Below are positions 2,817-61,092 of a stretch of 64,000 bases of DNA, in pieces. Each line of letters starts with the position of its first letter. Positions within the stretch are counted from its first letter, which is position 1. The notes beneath the pieces are model-generated. The model was not told the DNA's origin. It saw only the letters and a list, made by a program, of their open reading frames with translations, and did no database searches. Origin of the DNA: Paraspadella gotoi (taxonomy: Eukaryota; Animalia; Chaetognatha). Location: assembly GCA_051294375.1 (NCBI GenBank), contig CM119268.1:2540063-2604062 (forward strand), read 5' to 3'. Position numbers and translations under genes: made by a program.

Positions 2817-2947
2817 TTAGCAGTATTTTTTTGATTTTTTAATAAGAAACTACATTTTTAAACTATCAAGATCTCCTAAGTCATGCCGGATTATATTATT
2901 GTCATGTTGAAAAGCTAAACCGAAAACCGAAAACCGAAAACCGCTCT

Positions 2948-8000: not shown

Positions 8001-11000
8001 CAGAATTTAATATCAAACCGCGACCTTTCTGCAGAACCGTCGTCAGAGATTTCGTCGATGGTTTCTTTACGGCACAAGAAATTTATGTCCTTTTTATACT
8101 TTTTCAGTTTCTGTAGAGATTCGGGATCTATTGAAATGTTGCCTCTGCTTATATTAAACAATATTTCGCAAATGGTTTAATGACGTTTGGGTCCGCCTCT
8201 TTTGATAAAATTTTTTGTTGCTTAGTAGTTAATGAGCAAATGTATTCTAAAACTGGAAATATTTTCCTTTTAATTTCATTTTCTCTTTTTTTCTTCTTAT
8301 CGTATTTTTCTCGCCCTATGCTAGACGATGGGTGGCGTCGTATCGGACGGAGATGTTGGCGTCGAAGACGCAAGAATGGGAACTCTGAGAAGAATCGATT
8401 AATAAAATGCTGGTAAGAGTCTTACAAGCATGCGTAGCTATCCATAAAAAAGAAATATTTATCCGGAAACAATTGTCTGCCTGAGTCGTTACCCAATTCT
8501 GTCCCTACATGTTGCGAAGTAGTATATTTATATGTGTGTTTCGAGAGACTATGGTAAAATTGGGAATGTTTCTGTAGAACAATCGTGTAAGCAATAATAA
8601 GCGTGAATCCTCTGTGATGCGGATAATTTTGTCATCATTCTCTGCAGAAGCTTTCCGGGTCGATGACGCCGATCTGGTCGTGCCAGCACAACCACCGCCT
8701 TTCTGTCCTTCAAGTTTTCCTCCCGAAATAAACTCTTCGCGAAGCCTTCTATGAAATTGATATTGTTGTTGCGGGGTTCGTGGAAGACCTCTGGTCGCAA
8801 TCGTAAAAATTAAGTAAATTATGTCGGGAAACCAAGGTGAGCAGCTTACCCCGCGTTGCGTAAAAATGTAGACAAAACGTCGTTTTTCCCGACCCCGCCG
8901 GATGTCAAACCGACAATGGCGATATTAGAACGAATGGGAAATGCGAAAATCGTAAGAGTCGTCACTAATTCCATTTCGAATTTAATAAATTAAAAATTTC
9001 TGTACGTAATGTGGGAGTGGGTCCCGAAGTTTCGTCCGGTTTCGCGGTCTGGTAATTGTCTGTACACCAAAACATATTTTTTAGTGAATTTAATGTTATC
9101 TAATAATTCGTGTAGTCCGCCCTGACCGTCGTCTTCTGGTCTTTTTGAATAATTGTATAAACATTTATCCGTTGCCTCCGAATTTCCTTTTATACCTCCG
9201 CGATTACCATGTTCGCTTTTTTGTATTTTTTTCTTGTAATGTCATAATTTCGTTTTGCATCGTTTGAATTTTAATATTTGTGGTCCTGCTGCGTTATCCA
9301 TTCGTTTCGAAGTAATTGCGCGTTTTATTTGTATTATGAGAAGTTCGTTTCTTTAGTATTAAGTTTTCGTTTTCGAGTAATTTTTTTCTGAACTCGTGAT
9401 TATTCGTTGGTAAATTGCCTTATGGCCTCGTCTAACTCGATAAATTTTTGGCGGTTCATATTATTCCGTTTGAATTTGATAATATGAAAAATTTCTAACC
9501 GATGCAGTCGAACGAATTTTAAATAATGCGGGTGATGGTCACGCTTTTAAATTTTCTTTTCTGTACTAACAGCCTTCTGTCGGAGTGAAATAAAAACTAT
9601 TCTTGTTATTGTTTTTTCTTTATGCAAAATTAGACTATGAATAGACATAAACAATAGTTGGAGAGTGGAATAGCTTTGGGAACCCGCATATTCCGAAAGT
9701 TTTTTTAATGGAGACGCTTCCTCTTTTGAGTGACAGAAGGTAAACATTGCCTCGGTATGACCTGGTCAACGGGTTGACGAGTTTTTGAAAGTATGGTGGC
9801 TAGGCGACTTTAACCCGTAAAAAAAATAAATATAGGAACCTTGATGGTTCTAGTTGTATGTTCCCGTCGGGGATGGCACCAGACGTCGATATATGTGGAC
9901 AAGAACAGGACGTCGGTGTCTCTTCTCTCTCTCTCTGCCTCTCTCTCTCTCTCTCGTCTCTCTCTCTCTTTCTCTCCATCTCTCCCTCTCTCTCGTCTTC
10001 TCTCTCTCTGATGTTCTGTTCGCGCGCGGGATAGAACCGCGGCGGTGAATTTGTCTCTCGCGCGCGCGTTTGACATGTTGACAGGTCGAAATCGTTGAAT
10101 TGTATGCACGACGGAAGGAACGATGCACACATAATGCACCTACTCCGGAGGCAAGTCATTTGGCCTCCAACCCAAAGGTCCGGGGTTCTAGCCGGTGGTC
10201 GTCTGGCAGTTAAGAGGGACGGGGCGCTTAACCCGCCTGTAACATGGTGTTACAGCCTGATCCAAGCTCAGGGACTGCTTATATTGAACGGTTCTGTCAC
10301 TAACACATATCAATAATTACTGTCTCTACATTGGTGATCCGACTAAAAGATAAGTAACCTTCTGAAACTACATTATAACTGATTGATTGATTTATGATTT
10401 TGATTGATCTAGTGATTGATCGATTATATTTTATTTATCAATCGTAAATTGGCGGTTTTAACTAGCGAATAAAATCCTGCTCAGTTTCACGGCCATCACG
10501 ACAACGTATCCACTCAACAACCAACACGACTTCAACCTCAAAGACAAGCACGTGCAAGACAATACCATCGTCTGGGTTCTGAAGGAATAGATATATATTG
10601 TATTAGATGTCTAAGATCTAACTATCAGTCATTCGCGAGATCCGTGATTGTTAGATAACGGTTATCAGCACTATAACCAAATCATCACCAGTTGGTCACT
10701 GTTACGATTAATCACAAACTTGCCTAACAGCAAGTAATCATCAAAAACAAAATCATCAACAGCTGGTTATTTTTCATGATTTAACCGAGCTTGCCTAATA
10801 GCAAGCAATCATCATGACACTTTGACCAAACAAATCATTTTCCCTATCTCCCTACTTCCTTTTGTAAAATTTCTTCCCAAATATTTTTTTGAAGAAGAAT
10901 ATATGTAAATATTTATTGTAGAAGACAACCCCTTTTTAGTGGGTCCCCCAATTGTTTTCTCCTAGACCTTATTGTTTGCCCAAATATTCCCCAAGGAGAA

Positions 11001-36492: not shown

Positions 36493-39400
36493 ATGCTGGC
36501 AAAAACTTCCGCCTCGAATGGCTCCCTGGCCGGCCTCAAACGGGGACCCCCTTCGGCCGACTCTCCAGCCTTCCCGATGAGAAAGAAGATCCGTCGCACT
36601 TTTAAAAAGTTTGAGATCGAGGGCGACGGGAACTGCCTCTTCCGCGCCTTCTCCAAACACTTCAATGGCGCCGAGGATGAGTACGAGGGCGTGCGCCTGC
36701 GCATCGTCAACTACGTGGAACGTAACTGGGAAAAATTTCAACCGAAAGTGGAGAGCGTGTTGTCGCAACGGATCGCCCGGTCGGCGAGGCAGTACGTGTC
36801 CTACATGGGAAAGGATAAGACATTCGGCAGCGAAGTGGAGATCCTGGCGGCGTCGTTGCTCTTCAAGACGCCGATCCGCGTCTATCTCAAGCGGGCCAAA
36901 CGGTTTCTGCCCATCTACGAGTCGGATCTTGGTATGTCTAACGTGTCCTTAGCCGAGGATGACGAGACGCAGAACGTCCTTTACTTGGAATACGACGAAG
37001 GCAACTTGCACTACAACGTCCTCATTCCGCTCGACGTTCAAATAGTAGCGTCGGGAGCGGTGGCGGGTGCGTCCTCTGCTCAGACAACGGTTTCATCGAC
37101 GAGTCCGACTCTGCCGCCCCTTGCGGAGACGGACGAAAACCCTTCCAGCGCCGACGAAAAGTGGACCACGCCGCCAGCGTCTTCGTCTTCTCCTGAGACG
37201 TGCGGAAGCTCGGAGCATCGAGCGACGCCGAAAGCGCTTTTCGTCAATAAGACCGTCGCTAACATCCGGGAATTGGAAGACGTGAGTTTTCCGTATAGAA
37301 TTAATTTAGTCGTCAATTTTTTTTTTTTAGTAAAATTAACCATAAATGGTACCCCCATTGCAGCCAACCTCGTCGGCCGAGCGATCCTTCACCGACTCAG
37401 CCTCCTACTTCTCCGCGTCGTCCTCCAAATCCCCTCGCCCTTCTTTCCACTCCACGAGTTCCTCCTCGTCCACCCGTCGCGCCTCCGCCCCCATCGTCGT
37501 CCGGCCTTGCTTCGTTCCTCTCTCCCGAACGCCCTCTCTCTCTTCGGCGCCGGAAATCTCCGCCAGGGGCGTGGCCGGCGTTGACGGCGTCTCGACGACC
37601 TCGCCGCGTCTGCGGCTCTCTCCGAAATGGCACCGTCAGCGTCACGTTATTCCTCTGTGTTTGGCGTCGACGCGGGACCCGGCATTTCTCGGCGCCATCA
37701 CTCGGGCGGCGCGACGCCATCTGCTGGAGTACGAGATTTTGAGGAAGAGGACGGTGACGAATCGGATCACGCGGATGAGATCTGAGGGAGAAGGTGGGAA
37801 CTTGAAAGTCTCGTGAAGCAACTGCTTTACAGTTTTTTCACGATTGCTATTTGCGAATGAGTTTTGCGTTGTAATTGTTGATGTTAATTTCAAAAAAGAA
37901 TTCCCTTTGCCAGTTTTTTGAAAATTCCCGAGTTTTCTCAATTTGAATTTCATTTATTTTATTAGTTAATTTAAGTTCGAATATTCTTATTAAATTTTCC
38001 TTCATTAATAATTCTTTCGATCGATCCAGTTAAATGGATTCTCCTTTTCTTCCCCAGTCATCGATCCCGACACTCGCGCCGAACTCGAGGCCGTGACGAG
38101 CAAGTCCGCCCGCAAGGAGATCCTCGTCTGGCCGCACTTCGTCCACTCGCTCAAGTGTCCCGACGAGATATTCCTCTATCACCTCCTCTTCCTCCTCTTC
38201 AACGCCGTCCAGGACATCGACGACGCCTTCTCCGTCCTCACCCGTCACGTCCTCTTCCTTCAGCGGGATGAGATCGAAAAAGTATTAATCAATTAAATTA
38301 TTAATTAATAAGCATCGGTAATTAGTGTTTAGACCTCTCAATTTGAGTCATCTCTATGTCTAGTACCTAACCGCCTACAACCTCGAGTTCAAATCCCACG
38401 ACGAGGAGACGACGCAGAAGATCCTCAACCACTATCGCAAGTCGCTCAAGCGGGACGTCGCCGCGCTACGCAAAGAATACCGGGACACCTACTTCGCCTA
38501 CGAAGAGCTCGACCATCCGTGCGAGCCGACCAACCCGCGTCGGCGGCAGAACCTCGTCGTCGTCATGCTGGACTCGTCGCAGGAGGAGCATCGCAAACTC
38601 ATCAATCGCCTGAGCGAGTTCTTTCTCTACGCCTGGAAACGGAGGAGCCTGTCAAGCCGAGACACGGCCGTCAGCCTGGCCGGCCTGGACGACCGCGTCA
38701 ACGCGGGGCTCTGCAACGATTACGTCGACTCGATCGTTCATCGATTTCCGACGAAGAACTCCATCGATCGCGAGGTCCGCGCCTTCGCCCACCGCGTCGC
38801 CGTCGCCACGGGCAACGATTTTCGGCTGCACGTTTATCCCAAGGACGAGATATTCGTCGATCCCAGCGGATGCAGAGGGGTCTTCGCGTTGAAGGAGAGG
38901 CTGAAGGTGCTGGCCCAGCAGAGCGTCGATCTCGTTACCTTTAAGGTGTGGGCAATGAGCATGGGGTTATGGTTTTTGTGGGTAGTCGTGCGTTTATCTT
39001 TGTGGTTTTTCTCAACTTTTTTTTTCGTTAATTTTGGTGCAAAGATTTCTTTTTGTTTTCATCAGCGTCAACAGAGCATTGGCGACAGAATCGAGGATAT
39101 CCATCTAATGGAGTCGTCGCAATATCAAGTCGCCCTTTGTCTGCCGCTCGAGGACTTTGTAGATTTTCCGACGCTTTTGGAAATGATTTTCGCCGATTTG
39201 ATTTTCAAGTAAAACGAACTTCAAATTACTAGTATTAGTAGATATAGAAATTCCGTTCGGCAAAAATACATAAAGATAAGATACCGTCGTTTTCTCTTTC
39301 TTTTCGATATCCTTTAAATTGTTAATTGTTTAATTGTTAATAATTTCTTAACATATCTTGTTACAGAATGCAAACCTCCAACGACCAGAAGGGTTTCCTC

Positions 39401-40208: not shown

Positions 40209-41884
40209 ATGAAGAAAATCTCCTTCAGCAAAAACTTTTTAAGTTATCTCATTTGCCTTTTATACCTTTGTGCCGGTGAGTGGATTGGAGATTTCATTTT
40301 ATACATATAATTAAAGACGGCCGAACGTTGAAGCAACTGCCGGATTTTTTTTTTCCCCCGCCAGACTGGAGTTTCTTTTCGGACGCCGCTTCCGGGATTC
40401 AACTTGGAAATTGCAACTTTGACGGAGCAATCGATCGACAAAAAGCGCAGAAGGACGTTTTGTCCAAACTGGGGCCTTTGCTCAATCGATCCTTTGCCGC
40501 CGTCACGTTTGAAGTTGAAGGAAGAACATATACCTTTAACATTGGTAGGGCATCTCGGGATTAACATAATAGGTTTACATTTTAATCATTTTATGATCTA
40601 TAGTTAAACTTTTGACCTTCAAGTTTACAAGCGTTATCAAAAACTAACTAAAAAACCTTAACATCAGGCCTTTGTGAGAAAGCTTGCTCAGACTGCGAGA
40701 AAAACGTGGGAGTCTTGCAGAGTTGGGAAGACGATGGTCATCACGAAAAAGTCGTTGGTCGAATGGACGACGTCGTCGTCGTCGCCGGGAAGTGTAAGTG
40801 AGAATTCCTATATTAGTTGGATAAGTTTATGTTAACTTTTCGCTAATTATTTTATTCCATGTTGCAGATTGGATAATGCTCACCTACCCGAACGGTGATA
40901 AGTACAAAACTCACTGCACAGTCAATAAAAACCGGAAAGCCAATATTATGTTTCTTTGTGATCCGTCCAAAAGTAAGACTTTTTTGATTTTAATTTAAAC
41001 CCTTAAATCCGAATAATAAAAATCATTTGCTTTATCCTCGTTGTCAAGGCAACCCCGATGTGCGGGTACTCGAGGAGAACTATCAGTCGAACAAGTCTTG
41101 TTACTACCTGATCGAAGTTTCTACCAAGCATGCTTGCCCCCCCTCGAACAGTATTTTGCCGGAAGGCGTCTCCGGAGGTGAGTTTGAACGAGATTGGAAG
41201 TAAAATTAATTGGAGCGACAGATTCCGTCAACGAATCAATCAATCAATCAACCACCTTTCCAGGCAGCGTCCTCGTCATCTTGTTCGTCGTCGCCGTCTC
41301 CTGTTATTTGATCATCGGCTGCATTTATCAACGCTTCGTCGTTGGGGCGAAAGGAATCGAACAAATTCCCAACATCCGCGCCTGGCAGGTCGGCGCAACT
41401 CCGATTTATTAATAATTATTTCTTTATTCGTAAAGCCCAGTAATTGGCCTATATCTACGTTTTTGCCGATTCAATGTATTTGTCTCGGACAGGGTTTGGG
41501 CAACCTGATGGCCGACGGATGCGACTTTGTCTTTCGGACGAAAAATCCTCGAACCGGTAGCCAAAGATCTGCGCCGGGGGCCGGCGGAGGTGAGTGACTC
41601 GCTCTCAAGTCAGTTGGAGTATTTCCTCAGATTGAAAATCTTTCGTCGATGCTACTTTGTTTCCTAATCTCAGGTTATACGTCTTTCGACCAAACGCCGA
41701 ACGATCGTGCTTACAAAGGTATGCTTGCAACGTCGTAAAAAAAAAAACACAAAACCATCCGCTTATCCAATCGATTAATTAATTAATAATGAAATAATCA
41801 GGTCTCGGGGACAACATTTTATCGAACTCCGAGTCCAACGGAGGCTTAGACGGCGGCGGCGACGATAGCATGTTACCGATGTGA
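40209..41884 (+). CDS. M6PR: Cation-dependent mannose-6-phosphate receptor
   Basis: Nine exons encode a signal peptide, an MRH domain (YTFNIGLC, VVGR, WIMLTYPNGDKY..HC, RKANIMFLCD, EEN..CYYLIE..HAC), a TM segment GSVLVILFVVAVSCYLIIG, and a tail YQRFVVGAKGIEQIPN, GNLMADGCDFVFR, AYKGLGD ending DDSMLPM (human DDHLLPM). Confidence 0.95.
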
Positions 41885-42846: not shown

Positions 42847-45800
42847 TTACGGTTCCGTCACTCGGCTCGCCCTGCGCCCTCTGAAGGCGAAAGATTTTGA
42901 GACGCCGCCGCCTCTTTCAAGCGTCAGCTGCCCCGACCTCGTTTCCGGCAGCGAAGATCGGCGCCGGACGCCCATTTCCGGGGTCGTCGCCGCAGAAGTC
43001 GACGCGCTCCAGGTTCCTAGTCAAAAATGGAAAATTAAATCAATCAAATGAAAATTAAATCGGATCCAATCAATTCAAATCGAATCAAGTAAGAATCAGT
43101 TAAGGACCAAGGTTAATAGTATCACCGGTAGTCAGCGTAACCACTGGCGATCCCTTCGTTGTTGTTGACGTTTGCCCTTTGGCGTCGTCTCCTTTGCCCG
43201 CTTTCTCGTCGGACAAAGGTCGGGCGGGGGGAGGACGGGCGATTGGTCGCATCGGCACGCCTTTGTGCCTGTTTTCGATTAACATTATCGATTATTAATC
43301 AGTGCACCGCTGATGTAACGCAAGTGTACCGATAGTCTCATGAAAGTACCTCATGGCAGCCTCTTTGCAAAATCCACAACGACTCAATAGAATGTAAAGA
43401 TCTTTCTTAAATTGCTTGGTGAAAACCGCATAGAGAAATGGATTGGCACAACTGATTGATGGAAGAAAAACCAATCAGTTGATGGTATATCATAGGTGAC
43501 ATATATTTAATTCTATTCTTTTTTTTCTAATATGAACCTGTTCAATGGGTAGAAAAACACCAATAGAATTTTCGACTGCGACACCGAGATGAGAGGATAC
43601 CCCGCCGCCGCCGTCGCGCCGAAAAACGCGATGGGAAACCAGCACCCAAAATCTGAAGGTAAGGACGTTGATGAAAACTCACCCGCTGGTCTCTTTTCGA
43701 AGTACTATCTAGGAAAAAAGTATATGACATAATTTATTTATTCAATAAAAAGTATATTAAATATGGGTAAAATATCATGATGACATTTTCAATATTTGGT
43801 ATACCTTTCCTCGGCATCAATTATTGCCTGCCTTTGTCTGGGTATGCTCTTATATAGCAAATTGAGGTATGACAGTGAAATGTGTTTTGAGATCTTTATC
43901 CCATTCTGCGCAGCCCCAATATTAATGTTGTGCATCTTTCCCTCTTTTCTGAAAGCTATAATAGTACTTTTTTGAACCAGAAAGAAGTGCAAGGCCTTTA
44001 GCATTGAAATTAAAAAAATATTTAAAAAATAATTAACTCTATTTAACATAAAAACAAATAATTAAATACTAAAAATGGTTAAAAATTAAATACATTTTTT
44101 TTCGCTATTTTTTATTTGAAGTAACAATATTTTTTTGCCGGTAATTTCTAAACTATTTGACCTATAAAAAAATAGAAGGAAGCTACTGAAAAGAAATTTA
44201 AATTAAATTCGGTAATATTCTGATTTTTTTTAAATTAAATAAGTTTTCGAGTAGATATCTTTTATTAAAAATGTCATATACTTTTTTCCTAGATAGTAAG
44301 TCTTTACCTGTAAAGACCAGCACCGCCATTCGTTTCGCTACCGTCGCGTCGTTCTTGTGCGTCGGGCCGCCTTCACGAACGGTGCTGCCGATTTCCAAAT
44401 GTCAAATATAAATGATAGTTTTTTTTAATATTACTTATTAATTATTAGATAGCCCGTTCCTAAGCATGGGGCAAGGTAGCTTATTATTAAATGAATGTAT
44501 AATTATTATATTGATTGTACCAATTTAATATTACATTCCCAAATCTGTAGCAAGAAAGCATACAGTATTAATTTTTATACGGGTTGTACCCACTTCAGTG
44601 GTTCTTTTGTTTACTTGAACATGGTGACGTAAAAAAACATGATGGCGGAAAAACAAAGGACAGTGAAGGCGAGGAGAGAGATGACGAAGACGAGACCGGC
44701 GACGGTGCTCGTGTCCATCGGGAGACAAGTCGACGTCCATCCGTAGCTGCTTACCTCTTTGATTGTAGTTAATTAGTTAGTACGTTTGTTTTCGAGCTTA
44801 GTTAAGACTATATACCAACCGAATATGGGCAACGCGGCGGCGACGAAAGAAAACGCGTAAACAAAAAGCATAGTTTTCATCGCGAATTTGATGCGAATTC
44901 GTTTGTTGAGATTTATCGCGTTTTGGATCGCGTACCAACGCTCTGATAATGATTCAAATGATTAACTAATTAAATGTTTAATCGCAAATAATTGAATTTG
45001 ATTAAAATTTGTTGATAACCGATTTCTCACCCGCTGTGATAAAAGTCAACGTCGCGATTGACAAAACCGAACCGAAGACCGAGAAAAAACCTGATGGGTA
45101 ACGAAATTAATTAATTTAATTTAATTAACTGTTTTTTTCTCTCTATTTTATTATGTTTTCGTTTGCTCAGACTTAGTCTATGTTTGTTGATGATTATTGT
45201 ACTGAATAAACCTGTATTCGAATATAATAAATGAGAATGACTTTCAAAGGTTAAATCTCCCGATGCGATCCACTTGATTTTTTTCAAATTAAAGTAATTT
45301 TTAATTATGGTAAAAGTTCAAACGATGTTCTTTTTATTATCGACCCTCCTTCCCCCCCCCCAACCGGCGACTTGGCAACCCATTCCGTGCTGCCAATCGA
45401 TGGCGAAGTTGAAGTACATCCCGACCGTCTTCATGTCGACGATGGAGATCATGGTTAGGTAGACTCCGATCATGAAATCGGCCACGCCCAAGTTGAGGAT
45501 GAGAAATTTGGAGACCGACATTTTGGAGCAGGAAGAGAGAAGGACGGTGAAAACGAAGAGGTTGCCGAGAAGAGCTGGTCGAGGGGGGGGAGTGGGTGGA
45601 TTGAAATAAAAAAGCTAATTTGGTGGACATTGGACAAAGAGCCGTCTTCCAAGTTTGATTTATTTTTTTAATTAGACAAATTAAATGAATAAAACTTGAA
45701 AGAAAGTCGGTTCCCGAGAGTTTGGGTGGTCCCAATTAATTGAAATTCGCCGAAAAAAAAGTATTTTTTTTTTTGTTTGTTTTTTTTTTTCCAATTTTCT

Positions 45801-47887: not shown

Positions 47888-49022
47888 CTCTCTCTCCTTT
47901 CTCTCTTTCTCTCTAGAAAATCCACATGAATCGACCACCCATTCTCCTCCTCTTCTTCCTCCTTCCTTCTCTCTCCCTCTCAACTTCCGTCGTCGTCCCG
48001 CGCATGCGCGTCACTTGCGACGTGCATCACCGCTACGCCGTCACGCGCGTGGAGACCAGGCTGCGTAACGCGGCCGGCGCCGCTACGGAGACGGCGTTCG
48101 ACGTGACGCTGCCCGAATCGGCGTTCATCTCCAACTTTTCCATGACGATCGATGGCGTTGTTTATCCGGGGATCGTCAAGGTGAGGCAGAGTTGTTGTTG
48201 TCGTTGTTCTCATTACAAGTGGTGGTCGTTGTGGTGGTAGTGGTCGTCATAGTTTTCTTTTTGTGGTCAAGAATTTCGGTAAGAAATATTTTTGAATTTT
48301 CGGACACTAAAACTAATTTGCATGTTGACATAAAGTATTTTTTTCATTCTTTTCGTTCTTAATTTCCCTTTTGCTACTGTGAGCCTCGATTTGGGCGACC
48401 AAAAAACGTTCAATTTCTTTCATATGATAAAAATTTGACGATCGATGTAATTCTAATATTTCACTTGCTTTTTATTTTGTAATTTTGATGCGATTTAGTT
48501 TAGTAAGGTTTCCTTTTTAATATATTGTAATTTTATCATAGTTTCTACAAAATTTAAGTCTTCGTTTTTCAAAACGTTTCAAATTCATAAAGTAGAAATA
48601 CATGTTGACATTGTTAAGCCTTTTAATTTCATGCCATACTTGTGGATTTGACTAAAAAACCTAAAGACTTTCTCGCATTGAAAAAGAAAGTTTTAAAAAT
48701 CATTCGATATTATTCCCCGTCCTCAGGAGAAAGCCGCGGCGAAGGCTGCCTACGGCGCCGCCGTGGCGGCCGGCGCCTCGGCGGGCCTGGTCCGCGCGAC
48801 GCCGCGCAACTCGAATCGATTCCGCGTGGCGGTCAACGTCGCCGCCGACGCCTTCGTCGACTTCCATCTCGTCTACGAAGAGTTGCTGCGGCGGAAAAGA
48901 GGCGGATATCGGGTCGAGGTGGCGGTGAGACCTGAAGGGAAGGTGGAGGATCTGAAGGTGGAGGTGGAGATTGTGGAGGACGCTGGGGTCAGGTGGGTTT
49001 GGAAGGTGGTTTGGTTTTCTAT

Positions 49023-49059
<37 letters not shown>

Positions 49060-52000
49060 TTTCTTCTTTCTTCTTTTTTCTTTCTTTCTTTCTTTTTCTT
49101 TCTTTCTTTCCTCTTCATTTCACCCCTCTCATCCTCCCTCCTCCCCCCCACAGACTCCTCCGCCCTCCTCCGCTTCCTCCCTTCTTCCTCTTCCTCTTCC
49201 CCTCCGTCTCCCTCTCCCGCTCCGGACCCAATTCCTCGGCGAAGGTCCTCTTCTCGCCCCCACCTTCCGAGCAGCCGGCCGCGGGACTCGACGGCCGGTT
49301 GGAGGTTCTCTACGACGTGGAGAAGATCGTCGACGGGGGCGAGATTCATCTCGATGAAGACGGATACTTTGTCCACTACTTCGCCCCTCGGGGGTTGAAG
49401 CCTCTCGACAAACACGTGTGAGTTTGTAAAACGATATGTAATATTTGAAAAATCTCATTTGCATATCCTAGTAAATTATATCTATCGTCACAGGTTTTGG
49501 ATTATTTTTAAAATGATTGTTATTCCAGGGTTTTAACTGAACCTCCCAGTTTATTTGTTTTTTTTAATAGAATGGGCGAGTTTGATTAATGGTGGCGAAG
49601 ATAGGCAATTGAGAAAATGTTGAGAAACAAATAAAGTTTCTTGTATTTTAAGATTACTGCAGCTTTAAGATTCCTCCAATTGATCACTATATTTTAAATT
49701 CCTCCAATTCATAGTTGATCATTTTATGTGAGATTAAGTTCTTCAATCTCAATAACAAATTGTACCTAGCAGTTATGATTACTTCTCAAGTTCTCATAGC
49801 TTATCGGAGAAACAAGGCTTAAAACTCGCTTCGTTTTAATTGTAAATTTTAAACCGTTACGTAAAGATACCCGGTTTCCCGGAAACCTTAGGTTACGTAG
49901 CTGGATTTTTAGTTTTTTAATCAGTGAAGGGAGGCGTTTTCATTATGAAGTTAATAATTTAGAAAAAACACCTGTCATATTGAAAATCAAAAAGGTATAA
50001 ATAATATTTTTTTAAAAATTGTCGCCTACTCACTTACGGTGATAAACTAGAGGTCTTTATACTTTTTAACATAGCTTTTATTTCTTCATTCATTCATTCA
50101 TCTATTCATTCATTCATTCATTCATTCATTCATTCATTCATTCATTCATTCATTCATTCAATTGATTCATTGAATTTCTCAGCTACTTCGTGCTCGACCG
50201 GAGCGGCAGCATGCGAGGCATCAAGATGCGTCAACTCAAGTCAGCGATGGAGGTCATCCTGGAGGATCTCCGCGAGACCGACTCCTTCAACCTCCTCGAC
50301 TTTGGATCCGGGTTCCGCGTCTGGACTCCCGACAGAGGCGCTGTCTCCGTTCATTACGAGTCAGTTGCTCTTATTGTTGTCATTGTCCTTATCTTATTCA
50401 AAATGTTAGTTTGTGATTATTTTTTTTGGGGGCGCTATTTATTCTTAAAATCAAATAAACAATATTGGTCACGTCTAAGAGCCCAATATTTTTCTCGTTT
50501 GCTGAGAAATCCCTTATGTATGTATGTATTTCATAACTCCTAGGGGTCCCCGGTCTCCCCCTAGAAGTCCAGTCCCCAAAATCATTCGCTCTTACTTAGT
50601 CTCCATTATTTAAATATAACAATACAAAAAATAAGGTCAACGTTGAATAGGATTTATCCGAAATCGTGTGCCTAAAACCCGAGACGCCTGGGCCGTCACG
50701 AGCACGTCGACTGACGTCGCCAGCTGACAAAGAGGATGTTATAGTCTGAGGGACTGACACTAGACAGGGACACGAAAATAAAAAGTGGGGGCGGTAGGGT
50801 GGGGGAGAGACCGAACATCTGGCGAGATTTTTCCCGCGGAGTTTGACAATGAATTTGGCGGGAGATCGAAGTCGGAAGAGAATCTCCGCGGGGTGATGGA
50901 TGGATGGATGGATGGAGGGATGTCAGCCTCGTTTGAGGATGAGGACTGAGAGGGGTCAAGAAAGATGAATAGAAGAGAAGAAAAGAAAAGAAAAGAAAAG
51001 AAAAGAAAAGAAAAGAAAAGAAAAGAAAAGAAAAGAAAAGAAAAGAAAAGAAAAGAAAAGAAAATAAAATAAAATAAAATAAAATAAAATAAAATAAAAT
51101 AAAATAAAAGAAGAAAATATGTAGAATAAATAATAAATTGAGAAAAGTGAACTGAGAGAAACATTGGCGTGTTATTATTGAGCGTTATTAATGTGCGAAT
51201 GCGTATACGAAAAAAAAGTTTTAGACCTTCCGGGACATTAACCCTGATCCAGTAGTCAAACGAAAAATGACATTTGCCTTGTCGTTCTACGTTTACAGTT
51301 ACTACAGAAACCGGTTGTTACCCACCGAAACTCCCGGAGCGGTGTCGCCCAGCCCGATTCCCGCCACGCGCGCCAACGTCGATGGCGCCAAGAATTACAT
51401 CCGGGAGATGAGGGTCTCCGGATCAACTAACATCTACGACTCTTTGGAAAAGGCGCTCAATGATATGAAGGTCGGTCGAGGGAGAGAAAGGGAGAGAAAA
51501 GAGAAAGAAATAAAGAAAAAACGGATAAAAAAGAAATAATGAATTGTAAGAAGGATAGAGAGAAAGAAAGAAAGAAAGATAGAAAGAGATATTGAAATAA
51601 GAAAGGATTAGAAGGAGAGGAAAAAAAGAATAAAAGAAAAAAAAGAAATGGGGGGAAAATATGAAGTTTTAAAAAAGATAAGTCGAATGAGAAATAAAAA
51701 TAGTTACGTCTTAGCTGAAAAATATTAAAAAATTTATAAATCCTATTTTTAACGACAGAAACAACTCCCCCACCCAATTTTCCAACAGTCCTACCAATCA
51801 GCCGGAAGTCGCAAAGTCAATCTATTAGTCTTTTTGACGGATGGTGAGGCCAACACGGGTAAGTTCTCCGAGCGAGAGGACATCATTCGCCATCTGGGGG
51901 AAATCAACAGCGACGGCGTCGCCAGCATCTTTTCGTTGGGATTCGGGTCCTGGTTGGACTTCGATTTGCTCAAGGTAGACTGTGTGTGGGTTGGTTGTGC

Positions 52001-53431
52001 GTGCGTGCGTGTGTGTGCTTGTGGTTTGTGTGCGGTTGTGTGGATTTGAAACCGAGAGTGAAATCGGTTGCGTGATTGATATTTTTATTTTCGGTTTACT
52101 ATCCATTAATTAGTTTTATTCCTGGCGTTTATAAACATTTAGTATTTATTATCGTTTTTAAAGGGGCTTATTTTTGACAATGACGAACATTTCTCATTCT
52201 GGTCCAAGTTAAAATTAAGACTAAATTAAAATAATTAAGCCTTAAATGTTTCCTTATCACTCAAAATGTTACAATTTGGTTCTAAAAATTCGTTTTTCGC
52301 GTGTCGTTATTTTTTTTTTATCGTCAGAAAACTAGTGAGTAAATTGTAAATTTTTGTAAAAGTGACTGAGCCCAAAATATTTTTATTTTTTATCAATTCA
52401 ATTTTAATCCGAATTCTGTTTTTACATCCAGTATAAAAGGAGATAGACAGACGCTGGCCTATTACCCCCTCCTTCTCATTCACCTCCTCTTCATCCTCCT
52501 CCCAGGGATTCGGCCACCAATCGCTCCCTCTATATTATTCCCATTGGTTCGACCATCTTCTGACCACCTCTTCCCATCCTACATCTCACTCTCTTCGCCC
52601 CCAACACCCCCCCAACCCCCTCGCCAGGGCCTCTCCCTCCGCAACAACGGATTCGCCCGCAAGATCTTCGAGGGCGCCGACGCCAAACTTCAACTCACGG
52701 GGTTCTACGACGAGATCTCGGATCCGCTGCTGCAGGAGCTCAGCTTCGCCTACGCGGACGAGAGAGTTGATCAGGCGTCGCTCACCGGAAGTCGATTCAA
52801 GAATTACTTCGGCGGCGGAGAGATCGTCGTCGCGGGGAGAATGAGGGTGAGTCGTCGTCGTCGTTGTTGTTATTGTGTGACCTGCGGAGTTTTAAGTTAT
52901 GGAAGTCGATTTATTGTTGTTGTTGTTGATGGTAATTTGTAGTTGTTGCAATTGTTGTTGTGTTGGTTTGTTTGTTAGTTTTTGCGGGTGTGTGTTTGTT
53001 TGTTATGTATGTGTTTGAGGCGGTGATGCGTGTGGCATTTTTAGTGATCGCGTCCCACGTCTAGTTTGTTGATTTACTTTGTAGTCGCCATCGTCATCGT
53101 TATTATTGTTGTTGTTGTAAAAGTTGTTGTTGTGAATGAAAATCCCCGAGGGTGGGCGAACTAATTTGTTATTTTTTTTGTTTTTTGCCGTTGTCCTTCC
53201 CACTGGGCGATGATATCGGTCGATGTGACCCGGAGAAAACTTGGGAGGTTTATTTACTTCTCTCGCCGCCCACTTTGTTTTTCACTAAATTTAAAATAAA
53301 AAAAACAACACATTTTTTGACACTTTTAAAGATTAAACGGTAATTAAGAGCGGGACCGAACTTTGCCTTCCCGGATGTGAATTAATTAAAAAAATAAATT
53401 GAAACTCTCTCTCTCTCTCTTCTCTCTCTCT

Positions 53432-53499
<68 letters not shown>

Positions 53500-55564
53500 C
53501 CACTCCCAGACCAAACCCTCCCTCCAACACCCCGCCGTCTTCAAGTCTCTCGTCCGCGCGAGAGGCTTCGACGGGAACTCCTCCTTCGACACTGTCCCGC
53601 CAACTCCCCCTCCGCCAATTCCGCCTTCCAGACTCCAGAGGCTCTGGGCGTACTTGACCGTGAAGGAGATGTTGAAGGAGGCGGAGTTGGCGGAGGAGAA
53701 GAAGGAGAAGAAGGAGATCGAGAAGAAGGCGTTGGATTTGGCGCTCAAGTGAGGAAAGGAGAGGAAGAAATAAAGATGGAAAGAAAGATAGATAGAAAGA
53801 ATGAAAATAAAGGAAAGAAAAAAGAGCGAGAGAAGGAAAGAGAAAAAAAAATAGTGTAAGAAAGAAAGAAAGAAAGATCAAAGGAGAGAAAGATAGAAAA
53901 AAAAAAAGGATAAACAGAAAAAAATAATGAAAAAATAAAAGAAAAATAAATAGAAAATAATGAAAGATTGAAAGAAAGACACAAAGAAAAGATGAAAACA
54001 ATGGAACAGAAAATAATAGATAGAGAGCGAGACCGCAAAAAAATAGGAACAACTTTTTCCTCTTAAAATCTTTTCTTTTCTCGTTTCTAATCTCTCTCCT
54101 TTCCTCCATATTTCTCCTCTCCCCCCCCCACCCCCTCCTCTTGAACCCCCCTTTCTCTAAACCCCTCAAGATACAACTTCGTGACTAAACTGACGTCCAT
54201 GGTGGTAACACGCCCCCCTGAGCCTAACGAGAGTGAAGAGCAGCAGCGAGTGGAGATGGAAGAGGAACGCGGTCGCACTCGCAGCACCGGTAGCTTCAGC
54301 GGCCGCGGCGGAGGCGGAGGCGGAGGCCGCGCCCGCTATTCCAGCCGCAGTCGGAACCGGGTCGTCCGTCCTTCGGCATCCTTTAATTCCTTCGCGGATT
54401 CGGATCCGCATTTCGTCGTTCGCTTCGAGGGCGTCGACGATCCTCTCTGCTTCGATCTTCAAGGTTTGAGTCTGCGAACGTTTTATAATCTAATTTGCAT
54501 ATTGAAGTTGTAATTTTCGTTTTAATTTACGGTCATGAAAGTCGGTGGTTGGGATGTTATTTAGCACGATCAAATACTCTTGTTTTAATGATTTATTCTT
54601 TGCCCACGAATAAAAAAAAGTTTCTTTGAGCGTCCGAAACTGTTAATGTGCTTTTTAAGTGTGAAATACTAAATTAACGAAAGTAAAGTACTGTTTAAGG
54701 AAAGTTACTAATTTAAAAATACTTAAATTTTACTACAAATTTTTTTCCTTTACATCCATTTTGGCCGCGCCCGACAGAAGTCACAGAACCCCGATCCTCT
54801 CGAACATACCCAATTACCCATTCCTTACTCTTCCTTCCGACAGGCCAGCCCGGTCAAGTCTGGAATCTCCTCGAATCGACCAAAGTCCATCTCTCCGGCG
54901 AAATCATCCCGGCGCCGCCGACGCCGAACGGAAAGCGGCGCTCTTATTTCGGCCGGTTCGACTTCCGGTTCGAGGGACGCCGGGTCGAGTTGCGCGTCGA
55001 CGCCGAGAAGATACGAGTCCGTAACCTTGACGACGAGAACAACAAAAAGAATAACAACAGGGAAGACGAGTTTGTCCCGTGGCGCGAAATTCGTCTCGGG
55101 GAGGACACGGTTTTCGGGGGAAAGAAGTATGAAGGCGTTGACGCAGCCGCCGCCGACGACGCCGCAAAATCCGGCGTCCTCGTCGCCCGAACCGACGAAG
55201 ACCGACTGACCTTCGTCTTTGACGGCGTCGTCGTCGCCGTCGTCCGTCATCGTCAATGGCTCGGAACCGGAAAGGGTTACGTCCGTTACGTCGGCGTCTA
55301 TCTCGTCGAGGACCGCGGGCTGAAAAAAGGGGCGACCGTGCCAGAGGGGCTGTTGGGTCGTCTGGTCGGGCGCCGAGGGCTCGTGGAGGTGGGGATGGGC
55401 GGCGCCATCTTGAAATCGGACGGGAGATCGGTGAAAGTGAGGAGAGAGAAGAGGAGAAACTTTTTGACCGGAGAAGAGAAGATGCGGTGTTGGTTCGTGC
55501 CCAACTCGGGTGAGAGGTTGTTTAAAGGGAGAGTGGAGGCATTTATTGAGAGGAAAGAGTGATG

Positions 55565-58600: not shown

Positions 58601-61092
58601 AAACATTTCTCACATGCGACGAATTTTAGGTGAGTGAGAAAAGCTTCCATCCTCGACTTCTGTGAGAGATGGACAAGTTGTGATTTCGCTAAAAAGAAAG
58701 ATATATTTTTTTCAATTACCTATATATAATAATTTCTGTAATATCTAGTGAACATTTTATTAAATCACAAACCGCGAGTGACCAATGCAACTCACAAAGT
58801 CTCCAAGTCAACCATTCCTCTTAAGGCATCCGCCTCGATGCGTCGCAAAGCTGCACTGTTGCAAACCGATCTGAATTGAAATTGAATTGAATCTTCTGAA
58901 TTGAAAGCGTTTTTGATAGAAACGATCTGAATTGAAATTGAATTGAACTGATCTGAATTGAAAGCGTTTGTGATTGAATCGATCTGAATTGAATTGAACT
59001 GAATCGATCTGAATTGAAAGCGTTTGTGATTGAATCGCTCTGAATTGAATTGAATAGAATCTATCAGAATTGAAAGCGTTTTCGATTGAATCGATCTGAA
59101 TTGAATTGAACTGAATCGATCTGAATTGAAAACGTTTGTGATTAAATCGCTCTGAATTGAATTGAATCGATCTAAATTGAAAGCGTTTGTGATTTTAATT
59201 AAACTCGTAATCCACTTATTCAATGTTTGTAATCAACTAACATTTCTTGAAGAAAAGGGAAATTTTTCAATTGATTCGAGCCGAAATATTTCATTGGCGT
59301 CGACTCGATTACCCTGAGCAAAAAAGAAACAATGTAAATAAATTAAATTAAATTGTTTTAATTATTGTATTAACAATGTAAATAAATTAATTTAAATTGT
59401 TTTAATTATTGTATTAACAATGTAAGTAAATTAAATTAAACTGTTTTAATTATTATATTAAAACTGAAGAAAACTCACAATGTTCTCATGCTCTTGGGAA
59501 GACCTGTAGGAATCGTAACGACTTCTTCTCCACAGTAAACCTAAAAAAATTGTTCAAAAATTATTTATAAATAAATATTTATTTCACTAAAAATATAGAT
59601 AAGTTTTTGTGATAATGGTGATAACTTACTTGCTCAAAAGTAAGGCCTTCTGTGGCGCTGCTTCTCTTTGAGTCGGACATATGCACTTTCTCGCAAATGC
59701 AGCTGCTGCAGTTGTAGACCTGCGATTTGGCGAAAAATTGAGCAAAGCTTTATACATGCATTATATTAACTTAATACTTTACTTAGTTAAGAAGATAAAA
59801 TCTAAAATGTTACGCAGAGAGCCATAAAACTTCCAGACTAGTTCATTAGGTTTACGTATTTCTACCCAGAATACAAAAAAACTTTTCCCCAAAATGTTTT
59901 GAACACATTGGTGAGGTTAGCTAATAGCATTGACGTAGACTCTACGCATTAGAGGCTATTTCAAAAGAGTATGGTGGACTAAAATCCACAAACCGTTAAT
60001 CAGCGGCCATTGGTGCCGGAGGCAAGTCATTCGCCTCCCAACCCAAAGGTCCGGGGTTCTAGCCCGGTGGTCGTCTGGCAGTTAAGAGGGATGGGGCGCT
60101 TAACCCGCCTGTAACATGGTGTTACAGCCTGATCCGAAGCTCAGGGACTGCTTATATTGATCGGTTTTGTCATTAACACTTATCAATAATTACTGTCTCT
60201 TCATTGGTGAGCCCGACTTCCGAACACAACAGCAACAACAACACTTTCAGGCGACATGCCTCAACCTGGCGATGCACTTTCCGCCCACAACACATCAGGC
60301 GACATGCCTCAACTTGGTGACGAACTTTCCTTCAACAACAATTCACTGAAGAGATGCAACAGACTTCTCTCTACGGGAGGGGGGGATGTACGGTGGACTA
60401 AAATCCACCAACTGTTCATCAGCGACCATGTTGCCGCCTCCCAACCCAAAGGTCCGGGGTTCTAGCTCGGTGGTCGTCTGGCAGTTAAGAGGGACGGGGC
60501 GCTTAACCCGCCTGTAACATGGTGTTACAGCCTGATCCGAAGCTCAGGGACTGCTTATATTGAACGGTTCTGTCATTAACACTTATCAATAATTACTGTC
60601 TCTTCAAGAGTTTATTTTGCTGAGTGTTCTTTCCTTGTATTAAATAGAAAAGAATTGTAAATCCCCTTTTCTTAAAGTATTAAAAATCTGACCTAATTAA
60701 TTAAACTTATTAATCCGATTTTGCCTCACATTACATAGACGATAATTTATCTATAAAAGTTTTTTCACGAAATATCAAATAGAAAATTATCGAATACTAA
60801 TAAATTGACAAAAGTTCTATAACTCATTAATAATCAAACGACGATTAAAAGTTCATAGCATAATTTTATAAAGTCATAATCAATGTGTCATAGTAAATTC
60901 ATTTTTTTAAACTCTAATTTAAATTAATATAAAGTTATACAAAGTTACAAACTAAACCTGTTCGCTAAATATTAGTAAAACCAAAATAAATAAACTCACG
61001 TCTCTGCCGTGAGGATGCAAACCGCACAACGATTCCGCGTTTCCAAAGAGAAAAACAAACAAAATCGGCGCGAAAACTCTTCCGGGCGACAT
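42847..61092 (-). CDS. Glycoprotein hormone receptor-type LRR-containing GPCR (type A LGR; FSHR/TSHR/LHCGR/LGR1-like)
   Basis: Signal exon ~60999-61092, Cys-rich cap exons, a series of ~70-75-bp phase-2 LRR exons (57.6-59.3 kb), hinge LTYSYHCCAF (~57270), GFGYE (~56235) and AFNPCEDIM (~45860). TM motifs: SKFLILNLGVADF, YFNFAIDWQHGMGCQVAG, ERWYAI, TCLPMD, DATVAKRMAVLVFTDF.CWFPI, CANPFLYAVFTK. Stop at 42847-42849. Two 1-nt indels must be assumed. Confidence 0.93.
45926..46259 (-). mobile_element. Intronic element with tRNA-like A/B boxes (SINE or second Pol III LTR family)
   Basis: Minus-strand A-box-like TAGCGCACTGG (46214-46224) and B-box-like GGATTCTATCCC (46179-46190), several hairpins, and a flanking direct repeat TAATGA (45920-45925, 46260-46265). 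The flanking LGR exons join in frame without it. Confidence 0.5.
47926..55562 (+). CDS. ITIH: Inter-alpha-trypsin inhibitor heavy chain-like protein (VIT + VWA + C-terminal propeptide), nested in an LGR intron
   Basis: Ten exons: signal peptide; VIT domain (HRYAVTRV, FDVTLPESAFISNFSMTIDG, YEELLRRKRG); DGYFVHYFAP; VWA MIDAS DRSGSM, GSTNI, FLTDG; NNGFARKIFEGADAKLQLTGFYDEISDPLL; RLWAYLTV; ALKYNFVTKLTSMVV; SDPHFVV; LCFDL. Confidence 0.95.
50980..51108. repeat. Compound (AAAAG)n(AAAAT)n microsatellite; representative of many SSRs ((AG)n, (ATTT)n ~32511-32592, (ATTC)n ~50085-50160)
   Basis: Read directly. Confidence 0.95.
58867..59195. repeat. ~45-bp intronic minisatellite (GATCTGAATTGAAAGCGTTTGTGATTGAATC core)
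   Basis: About 7 imperfect units filling an LGR intron; a separate ~3x41-bp AT-rich repeat lies at ~59330-59460. Confidence 0.85.
59970..60606 (+). mobile_element. Essentially complete TRIM (miniature LTR retrotransposon) with tRNA-like sequence in its LTRs
   Basis: 5' LTR 59970-60203 (terminal TG apparently missing), PBS TGGTGAGCCCGAC 60205-60217, non-coding interior, PPT 60375-60386, 3' LTR TGTACGG...CTCTTCA 60387-60606. AGAG lies on both flanks (59966-59969, 60607-60610). Located in LGR intron 1. Confidence 0.92.
60003..60074 (+). promoter_or_regulatory. tRNA-derived internal Pol III promoter within the TRIM LTR (not a functional tRNA)
   Basis: 72 nt; acceptor-like stem GCGGCCA/TGGTCGT, A-box-like TGGTGCCGGAGG, T-arm CCGGG-GTTCTAG-CCCGG with B-box-like GGTTCTAGCCC; the anticodon stem is poorly paired. 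Confidence 0.75.

What the first reader, a model, noticed from the sequence alone, without database searches (positions are those of the whole stretch)
59966..60610. Miniature LTR retrotransposon whose LTRs carry a tRNA-like Pol III promoter (SINE-in-LTR hybrid)
Seen: what looks like two SINEs is one 637-bp LTR-PBS-internal-PPT-LTR unit with a 4-bp AGAG TSD and no coding capacity. Each LTR has a 5' hairpin (GGTGGA-CTAAAA-TCCAC), a tRNA-like segment (72 nt in the 5' LTR, partly deleted in the 3' LTR) and further hairpins (CTGTAACA-TGG-TGTTACAG; CCTGA..TCAGG). The PBS matches 12/13 nt of TGGTGACCCCGAC, which I recall as the complement of the tRNA-Trp 3' end. Known (from memory): Cassandra TRIMs carry 5S sequence, and Helenus-type TRIMs carry tRNA-like LTRs with 4-bp TSDs in animals. 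Inference: this is a Pol III-driven, Gypsy-mobilised parasite, possibly a new family or host lineage.
Basis: partly seen in the sequence, partly recalled or inferred. Interest (0 to 1): 0.8.

Follow-up and report, generated by a model that had tools for sequence, protein, structure and literature searches.

The report
Twister-bearing tRNA-headed mini LTR retrotransposon
This is one copy of an abundant, protein-free jumping element of an invertebrate whose two end repeats each carry a tRNA-like piece (a likely promoter) followed by a predicted self-cutting "twister" RNA, which would likely cut the element's RNA into a ~400-base unit that is closed into a circle and copied by another element's enzymes.

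Summary
The structure is real: a 637-bp non-coding LTR-PBS-internal-PPT-LTR unit (59970-60606) with AGAG on both sides, three more partial copies in the window, and over 180 distinct left junctions in one public run. Junctions are fixed at TA...CA (not TG...CA), and the flanks fit a 4-bp ATAT-type duplication, so it is not a SINE. The LTR head aligns end to end with real tRNA-Gly(CCC) genes; its promoter boxes are degenerate. This meets the published definition of a Helenus TRIM (Kojima 2024); no match to the published Helenus sequences was found. All catalytic and pseudoknot nucleotides are present, but Rfam does not call it and one near-invariant G-C pair is A-U. The likely mechanism is retrozyme-like: self-cleavage, circularisation, Gypsy-driven copying. 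Cleavage, circles and Pol III use are untested. The scan already noted twister-bearing elements on other DNA of this genome; that lead prompted my tests. Verdict: new variant of a known kind, interest 0.7.

The parts
59966..59969 (+). Left target-site duplication (AGAG)
   Evidence: Sequence; family flanks fit a 4-bp NTAN-type site
59970..60203 (+). 5' LTR, 234 bp, begins TA and ends CA
   Evidence: 101 contigs of run X1 have loose ends exactly before 59970
59974..59989 (+). Short hairpin at the LTR 5' end (role unknown; candidate end-recognition signal)
   Evidence: also present in LTR3 and copy B
60003..60075 (+). tRNA-Gly(CCC)-like head; degenerate box A about 60011-60022, box B 60055-60064; likely Pol III promoter
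   Evidence: ARAGORN relaxed score 86.8, reached by 23 of 2000 shuffles; 52-53 of 75 columns identical to tRNA-Gly genes L128 and L184
60077..60152 (+). Predicted type-P5 twister ribozyme of the 5' LTR: P5 60077-83/60146-52, general-base G60090, T1 60092-94/60134-36 (one G-U wobble in this LTR), palindromic P1 substitute 60095-60100, predicted cut between U60101 and A60102, T2 GC 60107-08/60139-40, P3 60109-16/60120-27, P4 60128-32/60141-45
60152..60190 (+). TATA-like TTATATT (60152-58) and AATAAT (60185-90): possible Pol II signals (rival reading)
   Evidence: TATA-like motif in 5 of 5 LTR copies, AATAAT in 4 of 5
60205..60217 (+). Primer-binding site, tRNA-Trp class (12 of 13 nt)
   Evidence: Compared by eye with Fig. 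S2 of PMC10886601
60204..60388 (+). Internal region, 185 bp, non-coding, CAA-rich, with a 48-bp tandem unit at 60236-60340
60375..60388 (+). Polypurine tract (60375-86) followed by TG (60387-88), which is absent from most genomic left junctions
60389..60606 (+). 3' LTR, 218 bp, with a net 16-nt deletion across box A and the D arm near 60430-36
60480..60555 (+). Predicted type-P5 twister ribozyme of the 3' LTR; predicted cut between U60504 and A60505
   Evidence: (P5, P3 and P4 pairs mostly at probability above 0.9)
60607..60610 (+). Right target-site duplication (AGAG)
11363..11802 (+). Copy B: end of a 5' LTR, internal region, PPT and full 3' LTR
10145..10344 (+). Copy C: 5'-truncated LTR plus the start of a PBS; 1-nt gap in the twister loop L4
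2940..3123 (+). Copy D: diverged (8-15%) lone LTR with deletions across box A and across twister P3/P4; followed by ATAT

Best explanation
This is a non-autonomous miniature LTR retrotransposon of the Helenus type whose LTRs each hold a tRNA-Gly-like head and a twister-type motif predicted to self-cleave, so it likely moves as a retrozyme, through a cut and probably circular RNA copied by a helper Gypsy element. Steps: (1) Shown: LTR-PBS-internal-PPT-LTR anatomy, fixed TA...CA ends, many dispersed insertions, 4-bp AT-rich target sites. (2) Inferred: the 5' tRNA head drives transcription, probably by Pol III, through both LTRs. (3) Predicted: the two twister motifs cut at U60101/A60102 and U60504/A60505 and release a 403-nt monomer (419 nt without this copy's deletion); the 6-nt palindrome that replaces P1 would let the two motifs of one transcript complete each other as a dimer. 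(4) Inferred from plant and animal retrozymes: an RtcB-type ligase closes the monomer, host tRNA-Trp primes at the PBS, a Gypsy reverse transcriptase runs round the circle with no first strand transfer, the PPT primes the plus strand, and the integrase trims the terminal dinucleotide to leave a TA end. On this model both daughter LTRs inherit the tRNA head of the parent's 3' LTR, so this copy, with its 3' box A deleted, would give promoter-damaged daughters.
For: TRIM anatomy. Fixed ends: left loose ends sit at the T of TATGG in all four runs laid (X1 104+82, X2 96+85, X5 59+33, X6 67+59 contigs at 11569/11568); right loose ends sit at CA (X1 73+71, X5 43+35, X9 19+23). The left-flank majority ends ATA[T/G/C] and the right-flank majority begins [A/C/G]TA, which fits a palindromic 4-bp site like the ATAT of the ant PbTRIM. 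tRNA origin: the 28 nt 5' of the searched motif match tRNA-Gly genes L128 and L184 better than 4999 and 5000 of 5000 shuffles. Twister: a descriptor hits both LTRs and 0 of 20000 shuffles (designed after seeing the sequence). A position matrix built from 15 Rfam-confirmed viral twisters ranks the four LTR copies A5, A3, B and C first among 228 candidate sites in the window. With P4 and T1 pairing required, the LTR scores 17.5 bits, reached by 6 of 4000 shuffles. The same L4/T1 variant (UCCGAAGC with GACGG) occurs in 10 viral loci that Rfam scores as twister-P1 (E <= 3e-4), and a 3-nt P2 strand in one more. The four positions that tolerate no substitution in Osa-1-4 and the cleavage-site A, A2 and general-base G are all present by my mapping. 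P1 is dispensable, and P2 imperfections and pseudoknot G-U wobbles are tolerated. Changes among window copies in P2 and T1 keep pairing through wobbles. The P1 substitute is self-complementary (-8.3 kcal/mol duplex) in 4 of 5 copies, like the one-pair, palindromic-tetraloop helix of dimeric axolotl hammerheads. The circle route is established for plant LTR retrozymes, which also have 4-bp TSDs, PBS and PPT.
Against: Rfam (including twister-P5, RF02684) gave no ribozyme match at E <= 10 in three scans of the region. A covariance model from the 15 viral twisters, covering only the UAA-to-P4 part, scored the LTRs 8.1 bits, E about 4, below two unrelated sites. The pair closing L4 is G-C in 26 of 26 confirmed twisters and A-U here; a review calls it essentially invariant. 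A scan for A-U-closed twisters gave 2 passes in 120 loci, with the same motif sequence as two loci that Rfam had not called twister. The matrix score is about 10 bits below the positive controls (27.4-36.9). P2 has only two G-C pairs plus a C-A mismatch. The nested twister fold is about 7-8 kcal/mol above the MFE, which forms a competing hairpin (pseudoknots not counted). There is no two-sided covariation among the five copies, which are too alike to show it. The predicted circle is not unusually structured (55% paired, z -1.0), unlike many retrozyme circles. Box A and box B are both degenerate. The lack of T4 runs is not significant (P 0.2-0.4), and this copy has one T4 at 60165. Copies C and D carry damaged twister cores.
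Confidence: 0.55

Rival explanations
1. It is an ordinary Helenus TRIM. Pol III makes a linear RNA from about 60003 through the 3' LTR, the ~200-nt redundancy supports normal strand transfer, and the twister-like fold is an inactive relic or a structural or packaging signal. Daughters would inherit the 5' head and so repair a 3' deletion.
For: All Helenus criteria that could be tested are met. The twister departs from consensus at the L4-closing pair and at P2 and is not called by Rfam. No T4 run lies on the + strand of copy B's internal region and LTR, or of this copy's internal region and LTR3, so read-through is possible.
Against: A full set of twister catalytic and pseudoknot positions in the right order and spacing is unlikely by chance (6 of 4000 shuffles), and the core is intact in 3 of 5 window LTRs.
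Confidence: 0.3
2. It is a Pol II-transcribed TRIM. The TATA-like motif near the LTR 3' end starts a short-R transcript, and the tRNA head and twister lie in U3 as relics, an insulator or a 3'-end-forming cut.
For: TTATATT is present in 5 of 5 LTR copies and AATAAT in 4 of 5. Two of five LTRs carry independent deletions across box A and a third is cut inside it. Both boxes are degenerate.
Against: There is no AATAAA, the motifs are common in AT-rich DNA, and the tRNA head keeps its 7-bp acceptor and 5-bp T stems.
Confidence: 0.12
3. It is two tRNA-derived SINEs in tandem, or a SINE composite moved by a LINE.
For: The head resembles tRNA-derived SINE-like heads found in metagenome contigs, and twisters are known at the 5' ends of RTE LINEs.
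Against: Junctions are fixed 33 nt upstream of the tRNA head and at CA, there is no tail, and a PBS and a PPT abut the repeats in two independent copies.
Confidence: 0.03

Closest known systems
Helenus TRIMs (proposed TRIMp3), Kojima 2024, PMC10886601; nearest by PBS class: wasp Helenus-2_SyJa/-2_SyUm and Gypsy-32_NVi (main text parts 1-4 and 6 of 6 read; supplement parts 1 and 8-11 of 11 read, whole file searched twice)
   Same: Under 1 kb, non-coding, tRNA-derived sequence inside both LTRs, PBS and PPT, 4-bp TSD in animals, tRNA-Trp PBS. TA-starting LTRs occur in some wasp families.
   Different: None of five element motifs occurs in the Helenus consensus file. The head is tRNA-Gly(CCC)-like with degenerate boxes and is not followed by the T-run seen by eye after the head in most families in the parts read. 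It is followed by a twister-type motif; the paper never mentions twister and describes no ribozyme in Helenus. The host could not be placed among the listed hosts. By eye, Helenus-2_SyJa/-2_SyUm LTRs hold a type III hammerhead core, unremarked in the paper.
Plant LTR retrozymes (Cervera et al. 2016, PMC4918200; review PMC7761336; passages read)
   Same: Non-coding LTR elements with one self-cleaving motif per LTR, PBS, PPT and 4-bp TSD, Gypsy-dependent, with a monomer defined by the two cut sites.
   Different: They are plant elements with type III hammerheads, a tRNA-Met PBS, ~350-bp LTRs and 600-1000-nt circles shown experimentally. Here the host is an animal, the motif is a predicted twister, the PBS is tRNA-Trp class, the LTR has an internal tRNA head, the monomer is ~400-420 nt, and nothing has been tested at the bench.
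Metazoan non-LTR retrozymes (PMC7229834; passages read)
   Same: Animal host, small RNA units of similar size, RtcB-type circularisation, dimeric ribozymes with a palindromic tetraloop.
   Different: They use type I hammerheads in tandem repeats and lack LTRs, PBS and PPT.
Twister ribozyme, type P5 (Rfam RF02684; consensus compared through RF03160; PMC5408937, PMC11662667, PMC5113685) and twister variants of Perere-3 LINEs (PMC8501958)
   Same: UAA cleavage loop, GA plus T1 strand, GC/GC T2, UCCNAAGC loop, P3, P4 and P5 helices in P5 order.
   Different: P1 is a palindrome rather than a stem, P2 is short, and the L4-closing pair is A-U. The retroelement twisters in the papers read sit at the 5' ends of non-LTR elements, not in LTRs.
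PbTRIM of ants (PMC3532108; passages read) and Cassandra (as described in PMC10886601)
   Same: PbTRIM: animal TRIM with 4-bp ATAT-biased TSDs. Cassandra: Pol III promoter inside the LTR.
   Different: PbTRIM has a TATA box, a tRNA-Leu PBS and no small-RNA head reported. Cassandra uses 5S sequence and is a plant element.

Membership tests
TRIM / Helenus | Two LTRs, under 1 kb, non-coding | tested here: met
   637 bp, LTRs 95% identical, no long ORF
TRIM / Helenus | PBS after the 5' LTR and PPT before the 3' LTR | tested here: met
   12 of 13 nt to the tRNA-Trp complement in Fig. S2; 12-nt purine run; both also in copy B. The host's own tRNA-Trp was not available.
TRIM / Helenus | tRNA-derived sequence inside the LTR | tested here: met
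   End-to-end match to tRNA-Gly(CCC) genes; the part outside the search motif was significant for 2 of 4 genes, marginal for 1 and not significant for 1; ARAGORN P about 0.012. Rfam and a phage-tRNA model missed it.
TRIM / Helenus | Box A (TRGCY...YGG) and box B (GGTTC) conserved | tested here: inconclusive
   GGTTC is present at 60055-59. Box A matches 3 of 5 letters of TRGCY, has CGG, and lacks the usual central A.
TRIM / Helenus | 4-bp TSD (animal families) | tested here: met
   Exact AGAG in this copy; flank majorities in five runs fit a 4-bp palindromic site. Per-insertion pairs could not be tabulated.
TRIM / Helenus | TG...CA termini | tested here: not met
   Genomic left junctions start at TA. 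This is not exclusive: some published wasp Helenus LTRs start TA, and TACA is a recognised non-canonical class.
TRIMp3 | Transcription by RNA polymerase III | not testable with these tools
   No run on record as RNA holds the element; also untested for Helenus itself.
LTR retrozyme | A self-cleaving motif at the same place in both LTRs | tested here: met
   Twister-type motif in both LTRs, 403 nt apart; met at the level of sequence prediction only.
LTR retrozyme | Hammerhead ribozyme (as originally defined) | tested here: not met
   No hammerhead core on either strand
LTR retrozyme | Self-cleavage and circular monomer RNA in cells | not testable with these tools
   Needs bench work or raw RNA reads
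Twister ribozyme | Conserved L1 and L4 nucleotides, general acid and base | tested here: met
   U^AA, GA, GC and UCCNAAGC present; compared with the RF03160 consensus and 26 confirmed examples
Twister ribozyme | Pseudoknots T1 (3 bp) and T2 (2 bp) | tested here: met
   CCG/CGG in LTR3 and copy B, one G-U wobble in LTR5; GC/GC in 5 of 5 copies
Twister ribozyme | Stems P1, P2 (4 bp) and P4 with an invariant closing G-C pair | tested here: inconclusive
   P4 has 5 bp but is closed by A-U (G-C in 26 of 26); P2 has 2 pairs plus a mismatch; P1 forms only as an intermolecular palindrome. P1 and P2 defects are reported as tolerated.
Twister ribozyme | Match to the Rfam twister models | tested here: not met
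   No hit at E <= 10; own partial model E about 4
SINE2 | 5' end at the tRNA head, simple-repeat tail, variable TSD | tested here: not met
   Ends are fixed 33 nt upstream of the head and at CA, with no tail

The most novel reading that the evidence does not exclude
An animal LTR retrozyme that joins an internal tRNA-type Pol III promoter to a dimer-activated type-P5 twister ribozyme in each LTR, and so spreads through ~420-nt circular RNAs copied by Gypsy enzymes. Small-RNA-headed TRIMs and retrozymes would then be one continuum, with ribozyme cleavage replacing the terminal redundancy of LTR elements.
Probability: 0.5. Interest if true: 0.85.

Novelty: new variant of a known kind. Interest (0 to 1): 0.7.

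Why it matters
The papers read describe LTR retrozymes only in plants with hammerheads, and state that animal retrozymes lack LTRs, PBS and PPT. They place twisters in retroelements only at the 5' ends of non-LTR elements. An active twister in an animal TRIM would give this widespread ribozyme a second natural job, supply a Pol III source of circular RNA in animals, and show how a promoter that lies upstream of the RNA's 5' end is still inherited. It would also widen the sequence space of active twisters (A-U loop closure, short P2, palindromic P1) that Rfam misses. The key claim is testable in a day by in vitro transcription. Literature searches behind 'not found': (PMC open-licence papers and bioRxiv only; Repbase and Dfam could not be searched).

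Tried and rejected
No whole genome is held, so genome-wide copy, TSD and helper searches were not possible.

Expression: no RNA holder was listed; run X9 is only guessed to be RNA and was not used as evidence. Runs X5, X9 and X10 showed no cover on this copy's flanks, and X10 (organism B) laid only 2 short contigs; neither was interpreted.

Element motifs: no hit in metagenome contigs and one unrelated hit in viral contigs.

tRNA tests: a pattern scan of prokaryote genomes gave 120 loci with no tRNA; a phage blastn gave only chance hits; a covariance model from 18 phage T5 tRNAs missed the head.

Host placement: two ITIH exon searches found nothing. An LGR exon gave 12 hits of 43 candidates at 52-63% identity (louse, ticks, aphids, a priapulid, four unnamed), so the host is an unplaced protostome-like animal.

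Ribozymes: no hammerhead core was found; short HDV-like loop words occurred on both strands, with no Rfam support, and were not pursued. P5-order scans of viral contigs gave no confirmed natural type-P5 example (0 of 37 by Rfam; 2 of 109 passed my filter and Rfam did not call them), and RF02684 rang in none of the control genomes, so I had no true P5 positive control. T-run depletion was not significant.

Papers: Roth et al. 2014 was not held. The CHiTA supplement, which lists about 2000 tested twisters and may include A-U-closed or palindromic-P1 examples, could not be read. Parts 2-7 of the Helenus sequence file were searched for motifs but not read.
Full report
Observation. The unit runs 59970-60606 (637 bp) between two AGAG words. 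The repeats are LTRs of 234 and 218 bp that differ at 10 of 218 aligned bases and by a net 16-nt deletion in the 3' copy, so this insertion is not very recent. The 185-bp interior starts with T plus a PBS, holds a 48-bp tandem unit, and ends with a 12-nt purine run and TG. It encodes nothing long. Three more partial copies lie in the window: B (11363-11802), C (10145-10344) and D (2940-3123, 8-15% diverged).

Family behaviour. Twelve of 14 listed public runs hold the element or part of it, 8 of them with at least half of its sampled words, nearly all from one coded organism. Laying contigs on the locus gave 18,181 records in run X1, and two X1 contigs bridge this copy's junctions (X1 may be the source sample). 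Loose ends pile up at the element's ends: 101 contigs before 59970 and 73+71 behind 60606/60607 in X1. On copy B's PPT-LTR junction, left loose ends fall at the T of TATGG in all four runs (X1 104+82, X2 96+85, X5 59+33, X6 67+59), against 12 (X2) and 7 (X5) further left and 9 (X6) further right; 229 weaker rows were not shown. So integrated copies begin TA, and the TG that follows the PPT is normally absent from the genomic junction; trimming by the integrase is my inference. The flank majorities end ATA[T/G/C] on the left and begin [A/C/G]TA on the right, as expected for a 4-bp palindromic site; the ant PbTRIM also prefers ATAT. Fixed ends, no tail, PBS and PPT rule out a SINE.

The tRNA head. 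Default ARAGORN, Rfam and a phage-tRNA model do not call it. Relaxed ARAGORN calls tRNA-Gly(CCC) at 60003-75 with score 86.8, reached by 23 of 2000 LTR shuffles. A metagenome scan with an anticodon-arm plus T-arm pattern returned 119 loci, 4 of them called tRNA-Gly(CCC) genes. The head aligns end to end with two of them at 52-53 of 75 columns. The 28 nt outside the searched motif beat all but 1 and 0 of 5000 shuffles for these two, all but 177 for a third and all but 1660 for the fourth; the best of 17 unselected T5 tRNAs was matched by 12 of 500 shuffles. Box B keeps GGTTC; box A is degenerate against the Helenus motif. The PBS matches 12 of 13 nt of the tRNA-Trp class used by wasp Helenus-2_SyJa and Gypsy-32_NVi. 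None of five element motifs occurs in the Helenus consensus file. The element therefore fits the Helenus definition as a new family.

The twister motif. Earlier notes of this scan on other pieces of the same genome proposed twisters in such LTRs; I tested this here. Mapping onto the Rfam twister-P1 consensus in P5 order gives: P5 60077-83/60146-52; G60090-A60091; T1 60092-94 with 60134-36; U60101^A60102-A60103; T2 GC 60107-08 with 60139-40; P3 of 8 bp; P4 of 5 bp around UCCGAAGC. A descriptor written after seeing the sequence hits both LTRs and 0 of 20000 shuffles. For a less circular test I collected viral twisters with a generic pattern (18 of 120 loci passed a pairing filter; 16 of these were sent to Rfam and 15 were scored as twister-P1, 2 of them above the gathering cut-off). 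A matrix from these 15 ranks copies C, A3, A5 and B first among 228 candidate sites. With P4 and T1 pairing required, the LTR scores 17.5 bits, reached by 6 of 4000 shuffles in either order and strand, while 11 held-out twisters score 27.4-36.9. The T1 variant seen here is natural: 24 distinct motifs from 106 loci passed the filter, and Rfam scored 10 of the 12 sent; one twister with a 3-nt P2 strand (1 of 120 loci) was also scored. Mutational studies report that T1 pairs are interchangeable, wobbles are tolerated, P1 is dispensable and P2 defects are tolerated (PMC5113685, whole main text; PMC11662667, sections 32 and 38; PMC5408937, passages). In place of P1 lies GGCGCU, self-complementary at -8.3 kcal/mol in 4 of 5 copies. 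[quoted passage not shown]

Results against the twister. Rfam found no ribozyme in three scans. My partial covariance model gave E about 4. The L4-closing pair is G-C in 26 of 26 confirmed examples but A-U here, and no convincing A-U-closed example appeared among 120 viral loci. P2 is weak, and the nested twister fold lies 7-8 kcal/mol above the MFE. The five copies show no two-sided covariation. Copies C and D are damaged in the core. The predicted 403-nt circle is no more structured than shuffles (z -1.0). I had no confirmed type-P5 control. I put twister ancestry at about 0.75 and present-day activity with a circular intermediate at about 0.55.

Mechanism. Most likely the 5' head drives transcription through both LTRs, the two motifs cut (perhaps as a dimer), a host ligase closes the monomer, and a Gypsy reverse transcriptase and integrase copy and insert it, as modelled for plant LTR retrozymes (PMC4918200 and PMC7761336, passages). 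Only the anatomy, the ends and the target sites are shown; the rest is predicted or inferred. The circle model and the linear Pol III model differ in which LTR passes on the promoter, which makes them separable from genome data.

Host and novelty. The window is animal DNA with spliced genes (homeodomain, mannose-6-phosphate receptor, LGR-type GPCR, ITIH). An LGR exon is only 52-63% identical to its best hits, so the lineage is unplaced and a new host group is possible but not shown. Kojima 2024 does not mention twister. Searches combining retrozyme, twister and LTR (11 papers listed), twister with retrotransposon and LTR (75 papers, 25 listed), and twister with dimer and palindrome (1 paper) showed, in their listings and in the passages read (also PMC8501958, PMC6765202, PMC9804982, PMC3532108), no LTR element with a twister. 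Repbase, Dfam and subscription journals were not searchable, and the CHiTA supplement could not be read.

Verdict. A new variant of a known kind: a Helenus-type TRIM that probably works like an LTR retrozyme with a different ribozyme. Interest 0.7.

Noticed in passing
PMC10886601 supplement, Helenus-2_SyJa-LTR and Helenus-2_SyUm-LTR: By eye both wasp LTRs contain a complete type III hammerhead core downstream of the tRNA-like head (7-bp stem I, CUGAUGA, stem II, GAAA, complementary loops), not remarked on in the paper. They share the tRNA-Trp PBS class with this element.
   Followed up: no
window 11786-12712: A 93-bp tandem array starts directly at the 3' end of copy B; related units lie at 6124-6449.
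   Followed up: no
window 25970-27767 and 27793-29584: A 1.8-kb, 94.6%-identical direct duplication on either side of an N gap, probably an assembly artefact.
   Followed up: no
window 2058-2448 and 31090-31649: Two fold-back (inverted-repeat) elements, 94% and 75% self-complementary, MITE-like.
   Followed up: no
window 36448-37584: A long stop-free frame with an OTU-like cysteine protease domain (PF02338, E 1e-12).
   Followed up: no
window 34293-34493, 41188-41409, 45321-45614, 47917-55559: Exons of a homeobox gene (Prop-like by recall), a mannose-6-phosphate receptor, an LGR-type GPCR on the minus strand and an ITIH-like gene (VIT, VWA, ITI_HC_C) that may lie nested within the GPCR gene.
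   Followed up: partly
L122-L240: Most of the 119 metagenome loci are one dispersed tRNA-headed SINE-like family that shares the TCGCCTCCCA anticodon-arm word with this element's head.
   Followed up: no
L864 (viral contig): A candidate permuted twister with the GACGG/UCCGAAGC variant, a closed 6-bp P1 hairpin and a 7-bp P4; not checked against Rfam.
   Followed up: no
window 60109-60127: The P3 hairpin is a near-perfect 19-nt palindrome, and its loop is one of the variable sites of the family; it could also pair between molecules.
   Followed up: no
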